From Colwellia sp. (GTDB taxonomy: Bacteria > Pseudomonadota > Gammaproteobacteria > Enterobacterales > Alteromonadaceae), in contig JABSOZ010000015.1 of NCBI GenBank assembly GCA_013215295.1, forward strand, positions 58,376-122,375: 64,000 nucleotides of DNA, read 5' to 3'. Positions 3,067-30,324 of the stretch are shown piece by piece. The position numbers and the translations under genes were made by a program. The notes beneath the pieces are model-generated. The model was given only the letters and a program-made list of their open reading frames with translations, made no database searches and was not told the DNA's origin. Numbering within the stretch: position 1 is the stretch's first letter; each line of letters begins with the position of its first letter.

Positions 3067-5094
3067 GTGGTTAAAATTTCAATTGTGGTGTTCAGTCTTT
3101 TTTTATTTTCCGCTTGCGGTGGTTCTGGTTCTGGTTCTGGTTCAAGTTCAAATGAAGAACCCGATGAGCAAGTTATTCCTGTCGTTAATAGTTTAGTCGA
3201 CGGTGAAATCACTATTAATGGTGAGTTAATTGTTGGTGATACTTTATCATTAAGCCATAACCTATCTGATGCTAATGGTTTAGGAACGTTAAGTTACCAA
3301 TGGCAGCGCAATCAAAATAGTATCAGTAGTATTATTACCAACGAAAGTTCGTCCGATTATGTCATTACCACACAAGACATAGGTTATAGCCTTTTCGTCA
3401 CGGTGAGTTTTATTGATGGCGACGGTTTTTCTGAATCAATAAACAGTGCGTTGACTGGAATAATTTCTAGCAATGAATCAAACAATAAACCGAATGTTTT
3501 ACTGATAATTGCTGATGATCAAGGCGTTGATGCTTCAGCGCAGTATAATTTCTCAACTGACCTACCTAATACACCAACAATTAACCTACTCGCTGAACAA
3601 GGTCTTACTTTTGATAATGCTTGGGCAACGCCTGCTTGTACCACAACGCGCGGTACTTTAATTACAGGGCAACATGGCATTAATAGTGGCATTAGTTATG
3701 TTCCTGCGGCAATGAACAGTGAAACAATGACTTTACAACGCTATTTAAAATCGTTTAATGAGAATGACGATTATAAAACGGCTGTTGTTGGAAAGTGGCA
3801 TTTAGATGGCGTTAATCCAGATTTATCTCATCCCATTGACAGCGGGGTTGATTATTACGCGGGAACAATAACAGGCACGTTATCTGATTACTACCAATGG
3901 GAATTAACAGAAAACGGAACCAGTTCAGTAAGTAGTGAATATCACACAACTAAAATTACTGATCTCGCTATCGATTGGCTAAATGAACAAAACGAGCAAG
4001 ACACACCTTGGTTTATGTGGCTGGCCTATGTTGCTCCACATTCTCCTTTTCATTTGCCACCAGAAGATTTACATAGCCGTGATCACCTTACAGGAACTGA
4101 TGTAGACACCAATAAACGTGAATATTATTTAGCGGCAATTGAAGCCATGGACTCTGAAATAGGGCGTTTACTTGACTCATTACCCGATGAAGAACGTGAT
4201 AATACCTTAATTATATATATCGGAGATAATGGCACTCCTGCGGGGGTGATTGATACGAGTGTTTATCATCGAACGCACAGCAAAGGATCTCTTTTTGAAG
4301 GGGGAATTCGAGTACCTATGGTGGTTTCAGGAAAAGGGGTTACTCGTCAAAATTTACGTGAAAGTGCACTGGTAAACACTAGTGACTTTTATGCCACTAT
4401 TAGTCATTTTGTTGGCAATTCAGTAACACAACTTAATGACAGTTATAGCTTTTTGGATCTATTGTCAGAAAGTGGCAACGGCTTAAGAAATTACAATTAC
4501 AGTGAATTTGACAGTAGTGATGTAACGGGATGGACAGTTCGAAATCAAGATCATAAACTGATTGAATATGATGATGGCTCACAAGCATTATATTTATTAA
4601 ACGACGGTGATATCAGTGACATTAGTGAAACTGACAACATCATTGCTGATAGTGCCAATACAGCTATTATTGCCGAGCTAAAAGAACAAGCACAACGTAT
4701 TCGTCATGAAACGTCAATATCACCTTTAGACATTACAGATGCTATTTTAACTTCCCGCAGTGCGAATTGTAGTGATTACCTTGAAAGTTATCAGTCATCG
4801 GTACTTGATGTAAATAATAGCACTGTTTTTGATGGTGAATTGACCATCAGTTTATCGGGAGACCATTGCGCTTTCCAAACAAACAATATCCCTAATCATG
4901 ATTTTAATGACGGCACTCAGGCGTTTCCAAATAATGTGAGTGCGCAAAACAATAACTTTCAAATAATAGCTGCACCTTCTCATGCAACATCCATAACGGC
5001 ATTAAGTTTAGTTGTTGATAATGCAATTCTTCTTAACGGCGTTAAAGTTGATTTACTCGCGGCAGCTTGTTTTGGTGTTGGCGATGGAAAATAG
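3067..5094 (+). CDS. Lipoprotein: Ig-like repeat + type-I sulfatase-like (alkaline phosphatase superfamily) domain + N-terminal half of a YHYH domain; ends at a TAG that looks like a frameshift site
   Basis: GTG start followed by lipobox LFSAC and a (GS)n linker. Sulfatase motifs are NVLLIIADDQG, PACTTTRGTLITGQHG and YKTAVVGKWHL. The C-terminal part (NNIPNHDFNDG...LLNGVKVDLL) matches the first half of YHYH-domain proteins. Confidence 0.8.
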   Translation: MVKISIVVFSLFLFSACGGSGSGSGSSSNEEPDEQVIPVVNSLVDGEITINGELIVGDTLSLSHNLSDANGLGTLSYQWQRNQNSISSIITNESSSDYVITTQDIGYSLFVTVSFIDGDGFSESINSALTGIISSNESNNKPNVLLIIADDQGVDASAQYNFSTDLPNTPTINLLAEQGLTFDNAWATPACTTTRGTLITGQHGINSGISYVPAAMNSETMTLQRYLKSFNENDDYKTAVVGKWHLDGVNPDLSHPIDSGVDYYAGTITGTLSDYYQWELTENGTSSVSSEYHTTKITDLAIDWLNEQNEQDTPWFMWLAYVAPHSPFHLPPEDLHSRDHLTGTDVDTNKREYYLAAIEAMDSEIGRLLDSLPDEERDNTLIIYIGDNGTPAGVIDTSVYHRTHSKGSLFEGGIRVPMVVSGKGVTRQNLRESALVNTSDFYATISHFVGNSVTQLNDSYSFLDLLSESGNGLRNYNYSEFDSSDVTGWTVRNQDHKLIEYDDGSQALYLLNDGDISDISETDNIIADSANTAIIAELKEQAQRIRHETSISPLDITDAILTSRSANCSDYLESYQSSVLDVNNSTVFDGELTISLSGDHCAFQTNNIPNHDFNDGTQAFPNNVSAQNNNFQIIAAPSHATSITALSLVVDNAILLNGVKVDLLAAACFGVGDGK

Positions 5095-5646: not shown

Positions 5647-5679
5647 AAACCCTGATTAATTAACTATTCAGGGTTTTTG
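5647..5679. terminator. Bidirectional terminator hairpin between convergent genes
   Basis: AAACCCTGA-N12-TCAGGGTTT flanked by an A-run and a T-run. It lies between the + gene ending at 5564 and the - gene ending at 5717. Confidence 0.55.
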
Positions 5680-26816: not shown

Positions 26817-27998
26817 TTACAATGATTGATGTGGACCAAAAACTTCATAATGAATATTAATTTCCGGAACATTTAGCGTGAGTAATTGTTGCTTAGCAAA
26901 TTGCATGAAACCTATGGGACCACATAGATAGAAGTCGCCATCGTCTATGGGGAGAGTGAGTTCAGTAAAGTCCATAAATCCATGATAAATATCTTGTTGA
27001 TGGCTTTCTTCATTTTGATACCAAATATGTTGTTGCCAGTCATTTTTCTTTATTATTTCAGCAGTACGCGGCGCAAAAGAGTGTTGTTCACTATTTTCAC
27101 AAGCATGAAGGTATTGAACTGTTTCTTTATAGTTTTGCTCTGCTAAGGTTTCTAACATCGCTTGCATAGGCGTAATGCCGACACCGGCTGAAATGAGTAC
27201 CACGGGTTTTTCACGATTAACAAAGAAAAAGTCCCCGGCCGGTGCATATAAGTTAACTTCATCACCAATGTTAATATCGTCATGTAAGTGATTTGATACC
27301 TTGCCTGGAATACCATTGGTTTCTCTCTTAACAGATATTCGATAAGTTTCTCCATTGGAGTGATCGGATAAAGAATACTGGCGAATTTCTTTATATTCAC
27401 CTGCGTTTGGCGTTACTTCGATACCTAAATATTGTCCTGGAGAGAAACCAAGAACGGCTTGTTTATCTACGGGTGAAAATATGAAACTTTTTACCAGTTC
27501 AGATTCAACAATTTTATCAATAACTTTGAATGCTCTCGCATTGCGCCACCCACCTTGAACTGAGGCTCTTTGCTGATAAAGTTCGGCTTCTCTGTTGATA
27601 AAAATTTGCGCTAAAAACTGATAAGCTTTAGTCCATGCCTCTTCTACGTCAGTATTAAAAGCTTCTTCTGCCAATTCACGAAGTGTTTCTATTAAGTGGT
27701 GACCTACAATTGCATAATGTTCAGATTGAATATTTAAGCTGGTATGTTTTTGTGCAATCCGTTCTACAGCACTTTGCAATACGGAGACATTTTCAATATT
27801 TTTTGCATAAGCGGCTATCGCTTCAAAAAGTGCTACTTGTTGTCTTCCGTTATTCTGGTTAGACATATTGAAAATATTTTTCAATTCAGGTTCATGTAAG
27901 AACAAACGGGAATAAAAGTGTTTAGTTAACGCTGGGCCGGTATTTTCTAGAAGAGGGATGGTGCTTTTTATTATCTGAATATGTTTTTCGGTTAACAT
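26817..27998 (-). CDS. hmp: Flavohaemoglobin / nitric oxide dioxygenase
   Basis: N-terminal globin domain (IIKSTIPLLENTGPALTKHFYSRLFLHEPELKNIF) is followed by an FAD/NAD-binding ferredoxin reductase domain (RQYSLS, GVGITPM). 393 aa. Confidence 0.93.
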   Translation of the reverse strand: MLTEKHIQIIKSTIPLLENTGPALTKHFYSRLFLHEPELKNIFNMSNQNNGRQQVALFEAIAAYAKNIENVSVLQSAVERIAQKHTSLNIQSEHYAIVGHHLIETLRELAEEAFNTDVEEAWTKAYQFLAQIFINREAELYQQRASVQGGWRNARAFKVIDKIVESELVKSFIFSPVDKQAVLGFSPGQYLGIEVTPNAGEYKEIRQYSLSDHSNGETYRISVKRETNGIPGKVSNHLHDDINIGDEVNLYAPAGDFFFVNREKPVVLISAGVGITPMQAMLETLAEQNYKETVQYLHACENSEQHSFAPRTAEIIKKNDWQQHIWYQNEESHQQDIYHGFMDFTELTLPIDDGDFYLCGPIGFMQFAKQQLLTLNVPEINIHYEVFGPHQSL

Positions 27999-28094
27999 TG
28001 TTTTTCCTAAAGTAAATTAAATAAATTTTATGGGTAATAAAAGACAAAGATTTTGTCTTGTTACGTTTGAATTTAATGAGTTGTAGCTAGCTTA

Positions 28095-28262
28095 TTATCT
28101 TGCCCAAATGACTATCGCAATGACTGACAAGGAAACGGACAAGAGAAAGCAGCTGGTAGAAGACAGATCAAAAATAAAGTGTTGGTCAAAGTGATTTAGT
28201 TGCGTTGGTGTTTGTCGTTCATGGTTTAATTGAAGCAGTTCAGAGTCTTGAATAATGATCAT
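28095..28262 (-). CDS. Small protein with C-terminal TM helix (55 aa), second gene of a two-ORF unit upstream of hmp
   Basis: The ATG at 28262 lies 1 nt after the TAA of the upstream ORF (TAA-G-ATG), suggesting translational coupling. Product: MIIIQDSELLQLNHERQTPTQLNHFDQHFIFDLSSTSCFLLSVSLSVIAIVIWAR. Confidence 0.4.
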   Translation of the reverse strand: MIIIQDSELLQLNHERQTPTQLNHFDQHFIFDLSSTSCFLLSVSLSVIAIVIWAR

Positions 28263-28263
28263 C

Positions 28264-28536
28264 TTAAAAATTCCTTTTACCAAAACCATGTAAAGCAATA
28301 CAACGCAGTACATAACCAATTTTCAAAAGAGCTGCGAAAATTATCGTGGCAATATGCGCAGAAATTTGTACTGCTATTGCGAACAACTCATCGACCGCAA
28401 AGTTAATCATAATGCTGGAGGTAACAACAAAGAGAGAGAAAATCATCAAGTAGTTACCGACAATTAAACACTTTTGATAATTCAAAGCATTGGGTATCGA
28501 AGGTAATGAATTAGCGATAGTAAATTGTGAATACAT
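28264..28536 (-). CDS. Small two-TM membrane protein (90 aa), first gene downstream of the sigma-54 promoter
   Basis: GGAG lies just upstream of the ATG. Two hydrophobic helices are predicted (LIVGNYLMIFSLFVVTSSIMINF; IAVQISAHIATIIFAALLKIGYVL). The start lies about 50 nt downstream of the predicted sigma-54 transcription start. Confidence 0.5.
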   Translation of the reverse strand: MYSQFTIANSLPSIPNALNYQKCLIVGNYLMIFSLFVVTSSIMINFAVDELFAIAVQISAHIATIIFAALLKIGYVLRCIALHGFGKRNF

Positions 28537-28599
28537 TCATGACTCCATAATATTATTGTTATTTCAGTGTGCGGTTATATCGTTGCATAACACAAATAT

Positions 28600-28615
28600 T
28601 GCAAAGTCAGTGCCA
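28600..28615 (-). promoter_or_regulatory. Sigma-54 (-24/-12) promoter
   Basis: The minus strand reads TGGCAC-TGACT-TTGCA, a perfect match to TGGCAC-N5-TTGCW. It points toward the small ORFs and hmp, and away from norR. Confidence 0.8.
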
Positions 28616-28668
28616 AAGTGTTTAGTTGTTAATATTCAGTTGGTTAGTTTGTGCTGTTTATATTTGGT

Positions 28669-28681
28669 AGTCACAATGACT
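28669..28681. promoter_or_regulatory. NorR-type upstream activator site 1
   Basis: Perfect palindrome AGTCA-CAA-TGACT containing the GT-N7-AC core described for NorR boxes. It lies about 60 bp upstream of the -24 element. Confidence 0.65.
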
Positions 28682-28693
28682 CGTTTTTTGTGT

Positions 28694-28706
28694 AGTCTTT
28701 ATGACT
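28694..28706. promoter_or_regulatory. NorR-type upstream activator site 2
   Basis: AGTC-TTTAT-GACT with a GT-N7-AC core. It is 25 bp from site 1, and both sites are followed by the same CTCGTT. Confidence 0.6.
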
Positions 28707-28743
28707 CGTTAGTGATATTGTGATGGTGATATAGGGGATAAAT

Positions 28744-30324
28744 ATGAGCCAAATTTCATCAAGTGCCATTATTGAATTAGCACTGAACTTAGCGGGTAGT
28801 TTAAATACTAAAGATAGATTTGACCGATTATTGGATACCGTGAGAAAAACCATTGTTTGTGATGCGGTTGCCTTGTTGTCATATCACGGAGAAATGCTTA
28901 AACCTATCGCTTTACAAGGGTTAAGCAGAGATACCTTAGGTAGGCGATTTCATGTAGCTGAGCATCCAAGATTTACAGCGTTATGTAAATCAAAATCACC
29001 TATTCGGTTTGCTGCTGATTCACCTTTACCTGATCCTTATGATGGCTTATTAATTGATCGTCCTGGAGATTTACCTGTTCATTCTTGCATGGGTTTACCG
29101 CTTTATTATGATGACAAATTATTAGGCTTGCTAACCATAGATAGTTTAACACCACATATTTTTGAAGACATTCCCGAACGTACTTTAGAAGTGATTTCAG
29201 CAATGGCTTCTGCAACACTTAATACCGCCTTTTTAATTGAACAATTAGAAAACCAGGCGGATCATTCTAAGCAGGTGGTTTCAGCGTTAACCGAAGAGGC
29301 ATGGAAACGTGATGGTGGCGAATTAATTGGCGAAAGTCAGATCATGCAAAAGCTCAAAGAAGAAATAGATATTGTTGCCCCTTCAGATTTTAACATCCTT
29401 ATCTATGGTGAAACAGGTGTGGGCAAGGAGTTAGTTGCTCGTACCCTTCATCAGAAATCTTTAAGAAAAAAAGGACCGTTGGTTTATGTTAACTGTGCAG
29501 CCTTGCCTGAAAACCTAATTGAAAGTGAGCTTTTTGGTCATGTTAAAGGGGCTTTTACAGGGGCAGATAAAAATCGAGCGGGTAAGTTTTCTTTGGCAAG
29601 CGGCGGTACCTTGTTCTTAGATGAAATAGGTGAGTTACCACTCTCGGCGCAAAGTAAAATATTGCGGGCAATACAAAGTAATGAAATTCAGCCTGTTGGC
29701 CAAGACAATGTCGAAGAGGTTGATGTTCGTATTGTTACTGCTACGAATAGAGATTTGAAAGAAGAAGTAAAAGCTGGCCGATTTCGAGCAGATTTATACC
29801 ATAGGTTAAGTGTATATCCTATCCGAGTGCCTGAATTACAAAAAAGAGTGGGTGATGTTCAATTATTGAGTGGTTATTTTGTTGAACATACAAGACAAAA
29901 GTTAGGCATACCTCAACTGAAGATAACCGCTGACGCTATTACTCATTTAGAGCAATACAGTTGGCCCGGAAATGTTCGCGAGCTAGAGCATGTGATCAGT
30001 CGAGCAGCATTAAAAGCAAGGGCACGGCAGATGGACAGAAAGATTATCTCTATCGAAAGCGCTGATTGTGGCTCTCTTAGCATGAGCAAAAACGAAAAAC
30101 TAACGGCCACAAATGTACCTGCTTTGATGAGCAGTGAATTTACTACCATTAACCTAAGAGAGGAAACCGATCGTTTTCAACGTCAGCTCATTAGACAAAC
30201 ATTAACGCAAGAAGATGGAAATTGGGCAGCAGCGGCGAGAAAATTATCTATGGACAGAGCAAACTTAAATCGCATCGCTAAGCGATTAAATATACAGGTG
30301 GTTAAATCAGTCATTGAAAATTAA
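28744..30324 (+). CDS. norR: Sigma-54-dependent NO-responsive transcriptional activator NorR (GAF + AAA+ + HTH)
   Basis: N-terminal GAF domain, Walker A GETGVGKE, sigma-54 contact loop GAFTGA and C-terminal Fis-type HTH (AAAARKLSMDRANLNRIAKRLNI). The gene is divergent from hmp. Confidence 0.88.
   Translation: MSQISSSAIIELALNLAGSLNTKDRFDRLLDTVRKTIVCDAVALLSYHGEMLKPIALQGLSRDTLGRRFHVAEHPRFTALCKSKSPIRFAADSPLPDPYDGLLIDRPGDLPVHSCMGLPLYYDDKLLGLLTIDSLTPHIFEDIPERTLEVISAMASATLNTAFLIEQLENQADHSKQVVSALTEEAWKRDGGELIGESQIMQKLKEEIDIVAPSDFNILIYGETGVGKELVARTLHQKSLRKKGPLVYVNCAALPENLIESELFGHVKGAFTGADKNRAGKFSLASGGTLFLDEIGELPLSAQSKILRAIQSNEIQPVGQDNVEEVDVRIVTATNRDLKEEVKAGRFRADLYHRLSVYPIRVPELQKRVGDVQLLSGYFVEHTRQKLGIPQLKITADAITHLEQYSWPGNVRELEHVISRAALKARARQMDRKIISIESADCGSLSMSKNEKLTATNVPALMSSEFTTINLREETDRFQRQLIRQTLTQEDGNWAAAARKLSMDRANLNRIAKRLNIQVVKSVIEN

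What the first reader, a model, noticed from the sequence alone, without database searches (positions are those of the whole stretch)
28040..28743. NorR-dependent sigma-54 promoter drives two unannotated small membrane ORFs placed between the promoter and hmp
The minus strand carries a perfect TGGCAC-N5-TTGCA promoter (28600-28615). Upstream are two GT-N7-AC palindromes (AGTCACAATGACT and AGTCTTTATGACT, 25 bp apart), which overlap the divergent norR 5' region. The promoter does not feed hmp directly. It is followed first by a 90-aa two-TM ORF and a translationally coupled 55-aa ORF (TAA-G-ATG). Next comes an AT-rich hairpin (AAGACAAA-ATC-TTTGTCTT plus a T-rich tail, 28041-28059), and only then hmp. 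I found no sigma-54 element, and little room for a sigma-70 promoter, between the hairpin and the hmp ATG. hmp would therefore depend on read-through. The small proteins would be new members of an NO-stress regulon, or the hairpin could be an attenuator. Only two NorR boxes are visible, whereas three are described in E. coli norV.
Basis: partly seen in the sequence, partly recalled or inferred. Interest (0 to 1): 0.62.

Follow-up and report, generated by a model that had tools for sequence, protein, structure and literature searches.

The report
NorR operon: small protein, nnrS stub, hmp
This is an ordinary nitric-oxide-responsive (NorR/sigma-54) operon of a marine Colwellia; its first gene is a conserved but unstudied small membrane protein that sits behind NorR sites from Colwellia to Vibrio, and the supposed second small gene is the leftover start of a deleted nnrS gene.

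Summary

- **Promoter.** The exact TGGCAC-N5-TTGCA match is the only one in the 64 kb. The only two AGTC-N5-GACT palindromes in the window lie just upstream of it, next to a divergent norR.
- **90-aa ORF.** This is a real gene (dN/dS 0.07-0.2, AF2 helical hairpin). It belongs to an unnamed family of 60-130-aa proteins (233 cluster representatives, no Pfam or NCBIfam model). In 80 genomes the family follows NorR boxes and a sigma-54-like promoter, usually directly before nnrS and hmp. Vibrio copies stand alone but keep the promoter architecture.
- **55-aa ORF.** This is not a new gene. It is the N-terminal stub of nnrS, left by a deletion of about 1.2 kb shared with Colwellia hornerae and one MAG. 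It stays open, with relaxed but non-neutral evolution.
- **Hairpin.** It is the usual hairpin found before hmp in Colwellia. Its position and pairing are conserved, but its sequence is not.
- **hmp.** No separate promoter or NsrR site precedes it, so read-through from the NorR promoter is likely but unproven. Public RNA data are too thin to decide.

Verdict: a known kind of regulon with one uncharacterised conserved member. Moderate interest.

The parts
28744..30324 (+). norR: NO-sensing sigma-54 activator (GAF, AAA+ and HTH domains), transcribed divergently from the operon
   Evidence: NCBIfam PRK05022 NorR, 750 bits against a cut-off of 476. Pfam GAF, Sigma54_activat and HTH_8 domains.
28714..28724 (-). 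Degenerate third NorR site (ATCACAATATC), 19 bp upstream of the distal strong box
   Evidence: In Colwellia loci the same position holds the conserved GACAAAATAACAC. In Vibrio and other genera it holds full GTC-N5-GAC boxes. The 19 and 25 bp spacing matches P. stutzeri hmp sites at -192, -173 and -148 (PMC1274295).
28694..28706 (-). Distal strong NorR box, AGTCATAAAGACT (GT-N7-AC)
   Evidence: A pair of such boxes 25-26 bp apart was found upstream of the family gene in 60 of the 81 sequences examined.
28669..28681 (-). Proximal strong NorR box, AGTCATTGTGACT
   Evidence: Its start lies 65 nt upstream of the start of the -24 element, the same spacing (64-66 nt) as in most Colwellia and Vibrio loci.
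28600..28615 (-). Sigma-54 promoter TGGCAC-N5-TTGCA (-24/-12). The start site is predicted near 28590.
   Evidence: It is the only exact match in the window. It is conserved upstream of the family gene in nearly all Colwelliaceae loci, and as TGGCA-N7-TGC in Vibrio. The start site is inferred, not mapped.
28264..28536 (-). orf90: small inner-membrane protein with two helices, first gene of the operon. Member of an unnamed family with the motif Q-x2-AH-I-x-T-I ... K-[IV]-[GS]-Y-V-x-R-C.
   Evidence: More than 120 homologues. 233 cluster representatives by HMM, nearly all 60-130 aa. dN/dS 0.07-0.20. AF2 helical hairpin H17-47/H54-84, pLDDT 84. Invariant N28, H61, I62, K72, Y75, R78, C79. A GGAG Shine-Dalgarno sequence lies just upstream of the ATG.
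28095..28262 (-). nnrS remnant: the first ~55 codons (N-terminus and first membrane helix) of NnrS, still open and joined to orf90 by TAA-G-ATG
   Evidence: 42% identity to residues 1-59 of the L004 NnrS, E 8e-12. The full NnrS (PF05940, 283-317 bits) occupies this slot in relatives. The window aligns to L003 up to its base 4459 and resumes at 5652. Stubs of 58 and 57 aa occur in L001 and L002.
28041..28059 (-). Intercistronic hairpin AAGACAAA-ATC-TTTGTCTT followed by a U-rich tail; weak terminator-like element before hmp
   Evidence: A hairpin ending 31-42 nt before the hmp ATG occurs in almost all Colwellia loci, with unrelated stem sequences.
26817..27998 (-). hmp: NO-dioxygenase flavohaemoglobin, last gene of the operon
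   Evidence: NCBIfam PRK13289, 539 bits against a cut-off of 432. Globin, FAD_binding_6 and NAD_binding_1 domains.

Best explanation
The locus is a NorR/sigma-54 nitric-oxide stress operon of a Colwellia from marine sediment. NO-activated NorR binds two strong and one degenerate GT-N7-AC sites in the norR-orf90 intergenic region. It opens the sigma-54 promoter at 28615-28600.

The transcript encodes three things:
1. orf90, a conserved two-helix inner-membrane protein of an unnamed family.
2. A 55-codon stub of nnrS. The ancestral operon was orf90-nnrS-hmp. A deletion of about 1.2 kb in the common ancestor of this organism, Colwellia sp. DT_20 and C. hornerae removed all but the first membrane helix of NnrS.
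3. hmp, reached after a weak terminator-like hairpin that is a standard feature of the Colwellia pre-hmp spacer.

hmp has no promoter of its own that can be recognised. It is most likely expressed by partial read-through of that hairpin.

Shown here: the gene identities, the deletion, conservation of the promoter architecture, purifying selection on orf90, and conservation of the hairpin's position and pairing. Inferred: NO induction, the transcription start, read-through, and any function of orf90.

My best guess for orf90 is a membrane component of the NO response that works with NnrS where NnrS is present. The basis is the conserved stop-start coupling and the conserved His and Lys/Tyr/Arg/Cys motif.
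For: - **Gene identities:**
- **Promoter and boxes** are unique in the window. They are conserved upstream of the family gene in nearly all of the 80 loci, with a 64-66 nt distance from proximal box to -24 element in most.
- **Synteny.** norR lies divergent to orf90 in all Alteromonadales-type loci. nnrS follows directly in about 45 loci and hmp follows in most.
- **Tight operons elsewhere.** In Pseudoalteromonas the nnrS-hmp gap is about 20 nt, and in Psychromonas orf90-hmp is about 40 nt. hmp is plainly an operon member there.
- **Deletion.** define it. The NorR tree puts the three stub-bearing genomes in one clade (98/96), sister to L003 with intact nnrS.
- **orf90 is a real protein:** dN/dS 0.07-0.2; AF2 pLDDT 84.
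- **Link beyond NorR.** Distant family members sit 8 nt before nnrS, or between hmp and norR.
- **Hairpin.** 13 of the 18 Colwellia loci L001-L020 that carry hmp have a hairpin that at most 3 of 200 shuffles match, at a fixed distance from hmp and with different stems.
- **No alternative control seen.** No sigma-70-like promoter in 27800-28900. No NsrR motif near hmp.
- **RNA.** Metatranscriptome contigs 98.9-100% identical to C. hornerae span the orf90/stub junction in three runs.
Against: - No transcript map exists for this organism. The public RNA is low-depth contigs only. It shows orf90 and stub RNA in four contigs, but only one hmp contig, in a different run. That would also fit strong termination at the hairpin.
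- The hairpin is thermodynamically weak (-5.1 kcal/mol). The 121-nt region folds no better than shuffles (z = 0.08).
- A TAAAAT -10-like hexamer lies about 27-32 nt before the hmp ATG, so a weak constitutive promoter cannot be excluded.
- The loci were found by searching with orf90, so they cannot show how often norR-hmp loci lack the family.
Confidence: 0.8

Rival explanations
1. One reading: both small ORFs are new, independent small membrane proteins of the NO regulon. The 55-aa product is kept as a functional micro-protein in its own right.
For: - The stub stays open at 55, 58 and 57 codons in three genomes that differ at about 30% of bases. There are no indels inside it, while the spacer just downstream has several.
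- pN of 0.33-0.36 is below pS of 0.59-0.75.
- An independent truncation in L014 also leaves 55 codons.
- RNA contigs cover it.
- A close strain variant keeps the frame despite 10 base changes.
Against: - It is homologous to the NnrS N-terminus and occupies the nnrS slot, so it is not a new gene family.
- Its nonsynonymous rate is about three times that of intact NnrS N-termini at similar dS, which points to relaxed constraint.
- No protein relative beyond the window's own entry was found in 5.8 billion sequences.
- The open frame may be kept only to hold ribosomes on the mRNA.
Confidence: 0.2
2. The hairpin is an efficient terminator that ends an orf90(-stub) transcript. hmp is then transcribed from its own sigma-70 promoter overlapping the hairpin and spacer, under a different or constitutive control.
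For: - The U-rich tail after the stem in the window, L001, L002 and L003 resembles an intrinsic terminator.
- A TAAAAT hexamer lies 27-32 nt before the ATG.
- Metatranscriptome contigs pile on orf90 and the stub but not on hmp in four runs.
Against: - Only 42 nt separate the hairpin from the ATG.
- There is no -35 element, and the scan finds no sigma-70-like site.
- The -10-like hexamer is not conserved in relatives.
- No NsrR site is present.
- In Pseudoalteromonas and Psychromonas, hmp follows its upstream gene within 20-40 nt.
- The stem has only two G-C pairs.
- Contig depth is a poor measure of expression.
Confidence: 0.2
3. The palindrome before hmp is a DNA operator for a second regulator, not an RNA hairpin.
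For: - It is a perfect 8-3-8 inverted repeat placed just upstream of a gene start.
Against: - Related loci keep a palindrome at the same place, but with unrelated sequences: CCTAGG-type, AAGGCAC/GTGCCTT, CTTGAG/CTCAAG, AAATGG/CCATTT. That pattern is expected of RNA pairing, not of a protein-recognition site.
- The loop length varies from 3 to 9.
Confidence: 0.05

Closest known systems
Vibrio cholerae NorR regulon (norR-hmpA divergent pair plus nnrS; Stern et al. 2012, PMC3345576; predicted by Rodionov et al. 2005, PMC1274295)
   Same: - A sigma-54 activator NorR with GT-N7-AC sites controls hmp and nnrS.
- norR is divergent from its target.
- The sites overlap the norR upstream region, which fits autoregulation.
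   Different: - Here hmp and nnrS (ancestrally) lie in one operon behind a small membrane-protein gene. That gene is not mentioned in either paper.
- nnrS is reduced to a stub in this genome.
- A hairpin separates hmp from the upstream genes.
E. coli norR-norVW control region (three NorR enhancer sites, IHF, sigma-54 promoter)
   Same: - Divergent norR.
- Tandem GT-N7-AC sites upstream of a GG-N10-GC promoter.
- A third site at the expected spacing.
   Different: - The targets are a small membrane protein, nnrS and hmp, not flavorubredoxin.
- The third site is degenerate in this window.
- IHF involvement was not examined.
NnrS (PF05940), a haem- and copper-containing multi-pass membrane protein of NO-responsive regulons
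   Same: - The 55-aa ORF is homologous to the NnrS N-terminus and first helix.
- It starts at the same coupled junction after orf90.
   Different: - About 370 residues, nearly the whole Pfam domain, are missing. It cannot be a functional NnrS.
Intercistronic partial terminators and stabilising hairpins in bacterial operons
   Same: - A stem-loop plus a U-rich tail lies between two co-directional genes with no room for a new promoter.
- Structure is conserved and sequence is not.
   Different: - The stem is very A+T-rich and weak.
- Terminator efficiency has not been measured.
- In most Colwellia the U-run lies several bases after the stem.

Membership tests
NorR-dependent sigma-54 promoter | -24 GG and -12 GC elements with the spacing TGGCAC-N5-TTGCW | tested here: met
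   Exact match at 28615-28600, unique in the window and conserved in relatives.
NorR-dependent sigma-54 promoter | Tandem GT-N7-AC enhancer sites upstream (three in E. coli norV) | tested here: met
   There are two perfect AGTC-N5-GACT boxes 25 bp apart. A degenerate third lies 19 bp further upstream; its position is conserved across loci.
NorR-dependent sigma-54 promoter | Cognate NorR activator (GAF, AAA+ and HTH domains) encoded nearby | tested here: met
   NCBIfam NorR equivalog, 750 bits; divergent gene at 28744.
NorR-dependent sigma-54 promoter | NO-, NorR- and RpoN-dependent transcription | not testable with these tools
   Only sparse metatranscriptome contigs are available, with no condition contrast.
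NnrS (PF05940) | Full multi-pass NnrS domain of about 370 residues | tested here: not met
   The 55-aa ORF gives no Pfam hit. It aligns only to NnrS residues 1-59. tblastn finds no other nnrS in the window.
Hmp flavohaemoglobin | Globin, FAD-binding and NAD-binding domains at full length | tested here: met
   PRK13289, 539 bits over residues 1-393; all three Pfam domains present.
orf90 small-membrane-protein family (unnamed) | Two membrane helices with conserved N in helix 1 and AH-I-x-T-I ... K-x-x-Y-V-x-R-C in helix 2 | tested here: met
   Alignments A1 and A4; AF2 model. There is no Pfam or NCBIfam model, no PDB relative and no relation to NnrS itself.
orf90 small-membrane-protein family (unnamed) | Placement behind an NO-responsive promoter and/or next to nnrS, hmp or norR | tested here: met
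   Caveat: the loci were collected by searching with the family itself.
Rho-independent terminator | G+C-rich stem followed directly by a U-tract | tested here: inconclusive
   The stem has 8 pairs but only 2 G-C pairs, dG -5.1, and the tail is UUAUU. The consensus scan does not call it. Its position and pairing are conserved.

The most novel reading that the evidence does not exclude
The orf90 family is a dedicated, previously unrecognised membrane component of the bacterial nitric-oxide defence.

- It would be a small partner or assembly subunit of the enigmatic NnrS protein, contributing the conserved His and Cys/Tyr/Lys/Arg residues.
- It would also act without NnrS. It survives as the first NorR-controlled gene where nnrS was deleted (this window, Cognaticolwellia, Psychromonas). 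In many Vibrio it stands alone behind NorR sites.
- As a corollary, the nnrS stub would be kept open by selection, either as a one-helix micro-protein or to keep ribosomes on the mRNA ahead of hmp.
Probability: 0.35. Interest if true: 0.6.

Novelty: new member of a known kind. Interest (0 to 1): 0.42.

Why it matters
NorR control of hmp and nnrS is textbook, so the promoter itself adds little.

The useful result is a cleanly delimited family of small two-helix membrane proteins. It has no database model and no literature that I could find. It is under strong purifying selection. It sits behind NO-responsive promoters and directly before nnrS across Alteromonadales and Vibrionales.

NnrS is important for NO resistance in Vibrio cholerae, but its biochemistry is poorly understood. 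A conserved, translationally coupled partner gives a concrete handle through co-purification and mutation of His61 and Cys79.

The locus also offers a natural experiment. Related genomes carry the operon with nnrS intact, truncated or absent.

Tried and rejected
- I could not look for a second nnrS or for norR elsewhere in this genome or in the Vibrio genomes.
- **No database model for orf90.** Pfam and NCBIfam gave only sub-threshold noise (DUF2583/YchH, ExoX).
- **No structural or sequence relatives.** Foldseek against the PDB gave nothing at E <= 0.001, only generic helical hairpins. A PDB sequence search gave nothing. hhalign of the family against NnrS gave nothing.
- **Alignment-based hairpin folding failed.** RNAalifold on a MAFFT alignment of the pre-hmp spacers returned no pairs, because the hairpins were misaligned. 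I replaced it with a per-sequence hairpin scan with shuffles. That script stopped with an error at L030, so L030-L034 were judged only.
- **RNA evidence was too thin.** The window's own study gave one 217-nt hmp contig from a related strain. A marine metatranscriptome study gave a few 150-260-nt contigs on the C. hornerae locus. That shows orf90 and stub RNA exist but cannot settle read-through.
- **NsrR control of hmp rejected.** No motif was found near hmp; hits in the window were at chance level.
- **Operator reading of the palindrome rejected**, because its sequence is not conserved.
- **Literature searches found nothing.** Queries for a small membrane protein with nnrS or flavohaemoglobin in Pseudoalteromonas returned no papers.

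Full report
**Observation**

On the minus strand the window reads, in order:
- the start of divergent norR (ATG at 28744 on the plus strand);
- AGTCATAAAGACT (28706-28694);
- AGTCATTGTGACT (28681-28669);
- TGGCACTGACTTTGCA (28615-28600);
- a GGAG Shine-Dalgarno sequence and a 90-codon ORF (28536-28264);
- TAA-G-ATG and a 55-codon ORF (28262-28095);
- the inverted repeat AAGACAAA-ATC-TTTGTCTT (28059-28041) with a T-rich tail;
- hmp, 42 nt later (27998-26817).

The sigma-54 consensus match is the only exact one in 64 kb. The two AGTC-N5-GACT palindromes are the only ones in the window, against 0.46 expected. hmp and norR pass their NCBIfam equivalog cut-offs, at 539 and 750 bits.

A consensus scan finds no sigma-70-like promoter and no canonical terminator in 27800-28900.

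An 894-nt contig from another DNA run of the same sediment study is colinear with 27834-28727, without gaps. The arrangement is therefore real.

**The 90-aa ORF is a real, conserved gene**

It has more than 120 full-length homologues at 50-100% identity. Those that carry a name are called 'hypothetical protein' in Colwellia, Thalassotalea and Psychromonas records.

A scan of species-representative genomes returned 80 loci. They come from Colwellia, Thalassotalea, Cognaticolwellia, Psychromonas, Pseudocolwellia, Agarivorans, Planctobacterium, Endozoicomonas, Pseudoalteromonas and Vibrio.

A profile search of 1.84 billion representatives finds 233 clusters. Almost all are 60-130 aa. There are no fusions; the single long hit is a repeat-protein false positive.

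Other properties:
- Pairwise dN/dS is 0.07-0.20, similar to hmp in the same genomes.
- AlphaFold2 gives a helical hairpin, helices 17-47 and 54-84, with mean pLDDT 84.
- Invariant residues across 28 diverse members are N28, H61, I62, K72, Y75, R78 and C79. In more distant members the Cys can be Leu, but the His, Lys and Tyr persist.
- No Pfam or NCBIfam model, PDB sequence or PDB fold matches. The family is not related to NnrS itself.

**Its genomic company is what links it to nitric oxide**

In every Alteromonadales-type locus, norR lies divergently about 180-330 bp upstream.

A pair of GTC-N5-GAC boxes 25-26 bp apart was found in 60 of the 81 sequences examined. Often a third box lies 19 bp further upstream. 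That is the same 19 and 25 bp spacing that Rodionov et al. reported for P. stutzeri hmp (PMC1274295).

A TGGCA-type -24/-12 element follows, starting 64-66 nt after the start of the proximal box in most loci.

The Vibrio homologues (74-85 aa) have neither norR, hmp nor nnrS within 4 kb. One sits beside yggL. They still keep the boxes and TGGCA-N7-TGCA at the same spacing.

Two distant metagenomic members extend the link beyond NorR:
- one lies 8 nt before nnrS, behind what looks like an NsrR-type half-site rather than NorR boxes;
- one lies between the 3' end of hmp and norR.

One caveat applies. All loci were collected by searching with the family, so the data show that family members are almost always NO-regulon genes. 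They do not show that NO regulons always contain the family.

**The 55-aa ORF is the stub of nnrS**

In about 45 loci, the gene that starts at the same stop-plus-one-base-ATG junction after orf90 is a 410-430-aa membrane protein. It matches Pfam NnrS at 283-317 bits.

The window's 55-aa product aligns to residues 1-59 of the Colwellia NnrS at 42% identity, E 8e-12. At the DNA level the window follows its closest nnrS-bearing relative (L003) up to base 4459. It resumes at 5652, just before hmp. About 1.19 kb is missing.

Colwellia sp. DT_20 (L001) and C. hornerae ACAM 607 (L002) have colinear stubs of 58 and 57 codons. A NorR tree groups these two with the window (98/96 support), as sister to L003. 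That indicates one ancestral deletion.

nnrS has also been lost independently elsewhere:
- truncated to 55 codons in L014;
- absent in the Cognaticolwellia clade, in Psychromonas, and in a Pseudoalteromonas subgroup.

No other nnrS lies in the 64-kb window. The rest of the genome could not be searched.

**Is the stub dead?**

Not obviously. Four observations suggest some constraint:
- It is open in all three genomes despite about 30% base divergence.
- It contains no indels, whereas the spacer just downstream has several.
- It shows pN 0.33-0.36 against pS 0.59-0.75.
- A close strain variant keeps the frame through ten substitutions.

Against this, its nonsynonymous rate is about three times that of intact NnrS N-termini at comparable dS. 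No protein relative is on record.

I read this as relaxed constraint with some residual selection. The selection could act on a one-helix peptide, or simply on continued translation ahead of hmp. This remains open.

**The hairpin**

Taken alone it is weak: -5.1 kcal/mol, two G-C pairs, and the 121-nt context folds no better than shuffles.

Comparison rescues it. Nearly every Colwellia locus has a stem-loop ending 31-42 nt before the hmp ATG. In 13 of the 18 Colwellia loci L001-L020 that carry hmp, at most 3 of 200 shuffles do as well.

The stems differ completely between lineages:
- AAGACAAA/TTTGTCTT;
- AAATGG/CCATTT;
- GAAAGG/CCTTTT;
- AAAAGGCA/TGCCTTTT;
- CCTAGGT-type;
- CTTGAG/CTCAAG;
- TACCAATA/TATTGGTA.

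Pairing is kept while sequence turns over. That argues for an RNA structure and against a protein operator.

In the window's own subclade the stem is followed by TTTTATT or TTTGTT, like a weak intrinsic terminator. So the hairpin does not belong to the small ORFs. It is the ancestral nnrS-hmp intercistronic element, brought close to orf90 by the deletion.

**Does hmp depend on read-through?**

In favour:
- No sigma-54 element, no sigma-70-like site and no NsrR motif lie before hmp.
- Only 42 nt separate the hairpin from the ATG.
- The spacer has no conserved -10.
- In Pseudoalteromonas and Psychromonas, hmp follows the preceding gene within 20-40 nt.

Against, or unknown:
- A lone TAAAAT lies 27-32 nt before the ATG.
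- In marine metatranscriptomes that contain a C. hornerae-like strain, contigs cover the orf90/stub junction in three runs. hmp appears only once, in a different run. These are low-depth assembler contigs, so this is only a hint that RNA drops after the hairpin.

I put read-through dependence at about 0.65.

**Comparison with the known**

NorR, sigma-54 and GT-N7-AC control of hmp and nnrS was predicted in 2005 and shown in V. cholerae in 2012 (PMC1274295, PMC3345576). The promoter here meets the sequence-level criteria of that class. The third site is degenerate (ATCACAATATC, 28724-28714), but it lies at the right place.

Neither paper mentions a small gene ahead of nnrS or hmp. Text searches for such a protein found nothing.

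It may be the same family, but I could not verify that.

**Verdict**

This is a known kind of regulon with a lineage-specific nnrS deletion. The finding of value is an uncharacterised, well-conserved small membrane protein as a regular member of it.

Noticed in passing
window 28260-28323: In DNA run X1, a 6.9-kb contig at depth 27 (against about 11 for this organism) matches only the conserved 3' end of orf90. It then continues into a different sequence that reads like an nnrS start (MLQIQDPEITQ). A more abundant Colwellia with nnrS probably intact therefore shares the sample. This explains why Logan contigs of this strain break at 28162-28375.
   Followed up: partly
L036:4335-5918: In the Alteromonadaceae MAG DT_4, nnrS matches in two pieces (residues 34-231 and 259-421) separated by about 500 bp. 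This suggests an insertion in, or disruption of, nnrS.
   Followed up: no
L017:5567-6867: In Colwellia piezophila, the best tblastn segment for Hmp covers only residues 201-393. The globin half may be frameshifted, or it may simply fall in a separate segment.
   Followed up: no
L082:3395-3500 and L083: A distant 73-aa family member lies 8 nt before nnrS. It has no NorR boxes. Its upstream region contains GGTGTAAATAATATGCATC, which resembles the NsrR motif gATGyAT-N5-ATrCATc. The family may therefore sit under different NO regulators in different lineages.
   Followed up: partly
L081:1-1337: In a higher-G+C metagenomic contig, the order is 3' end of hmp, then a 72-aa family member, then norR, all on one strand. 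This is a different arrangement of the same three genes.
   Followed up: partly
L002:3818-3964: A metatranscriptome contig covers the norR-orf90 intergenic region upstream of the sigma-54 start in C. hornerae. It could be the norR leader. The library gives no strand information.
   Followed up: no
L014:4275-4442: A second, phylogenetically independent nnrS truncation also leaves a 55-codon ORF ending just after the first membrane helix. Here no hmp lies downstream.
   Followed up: partly
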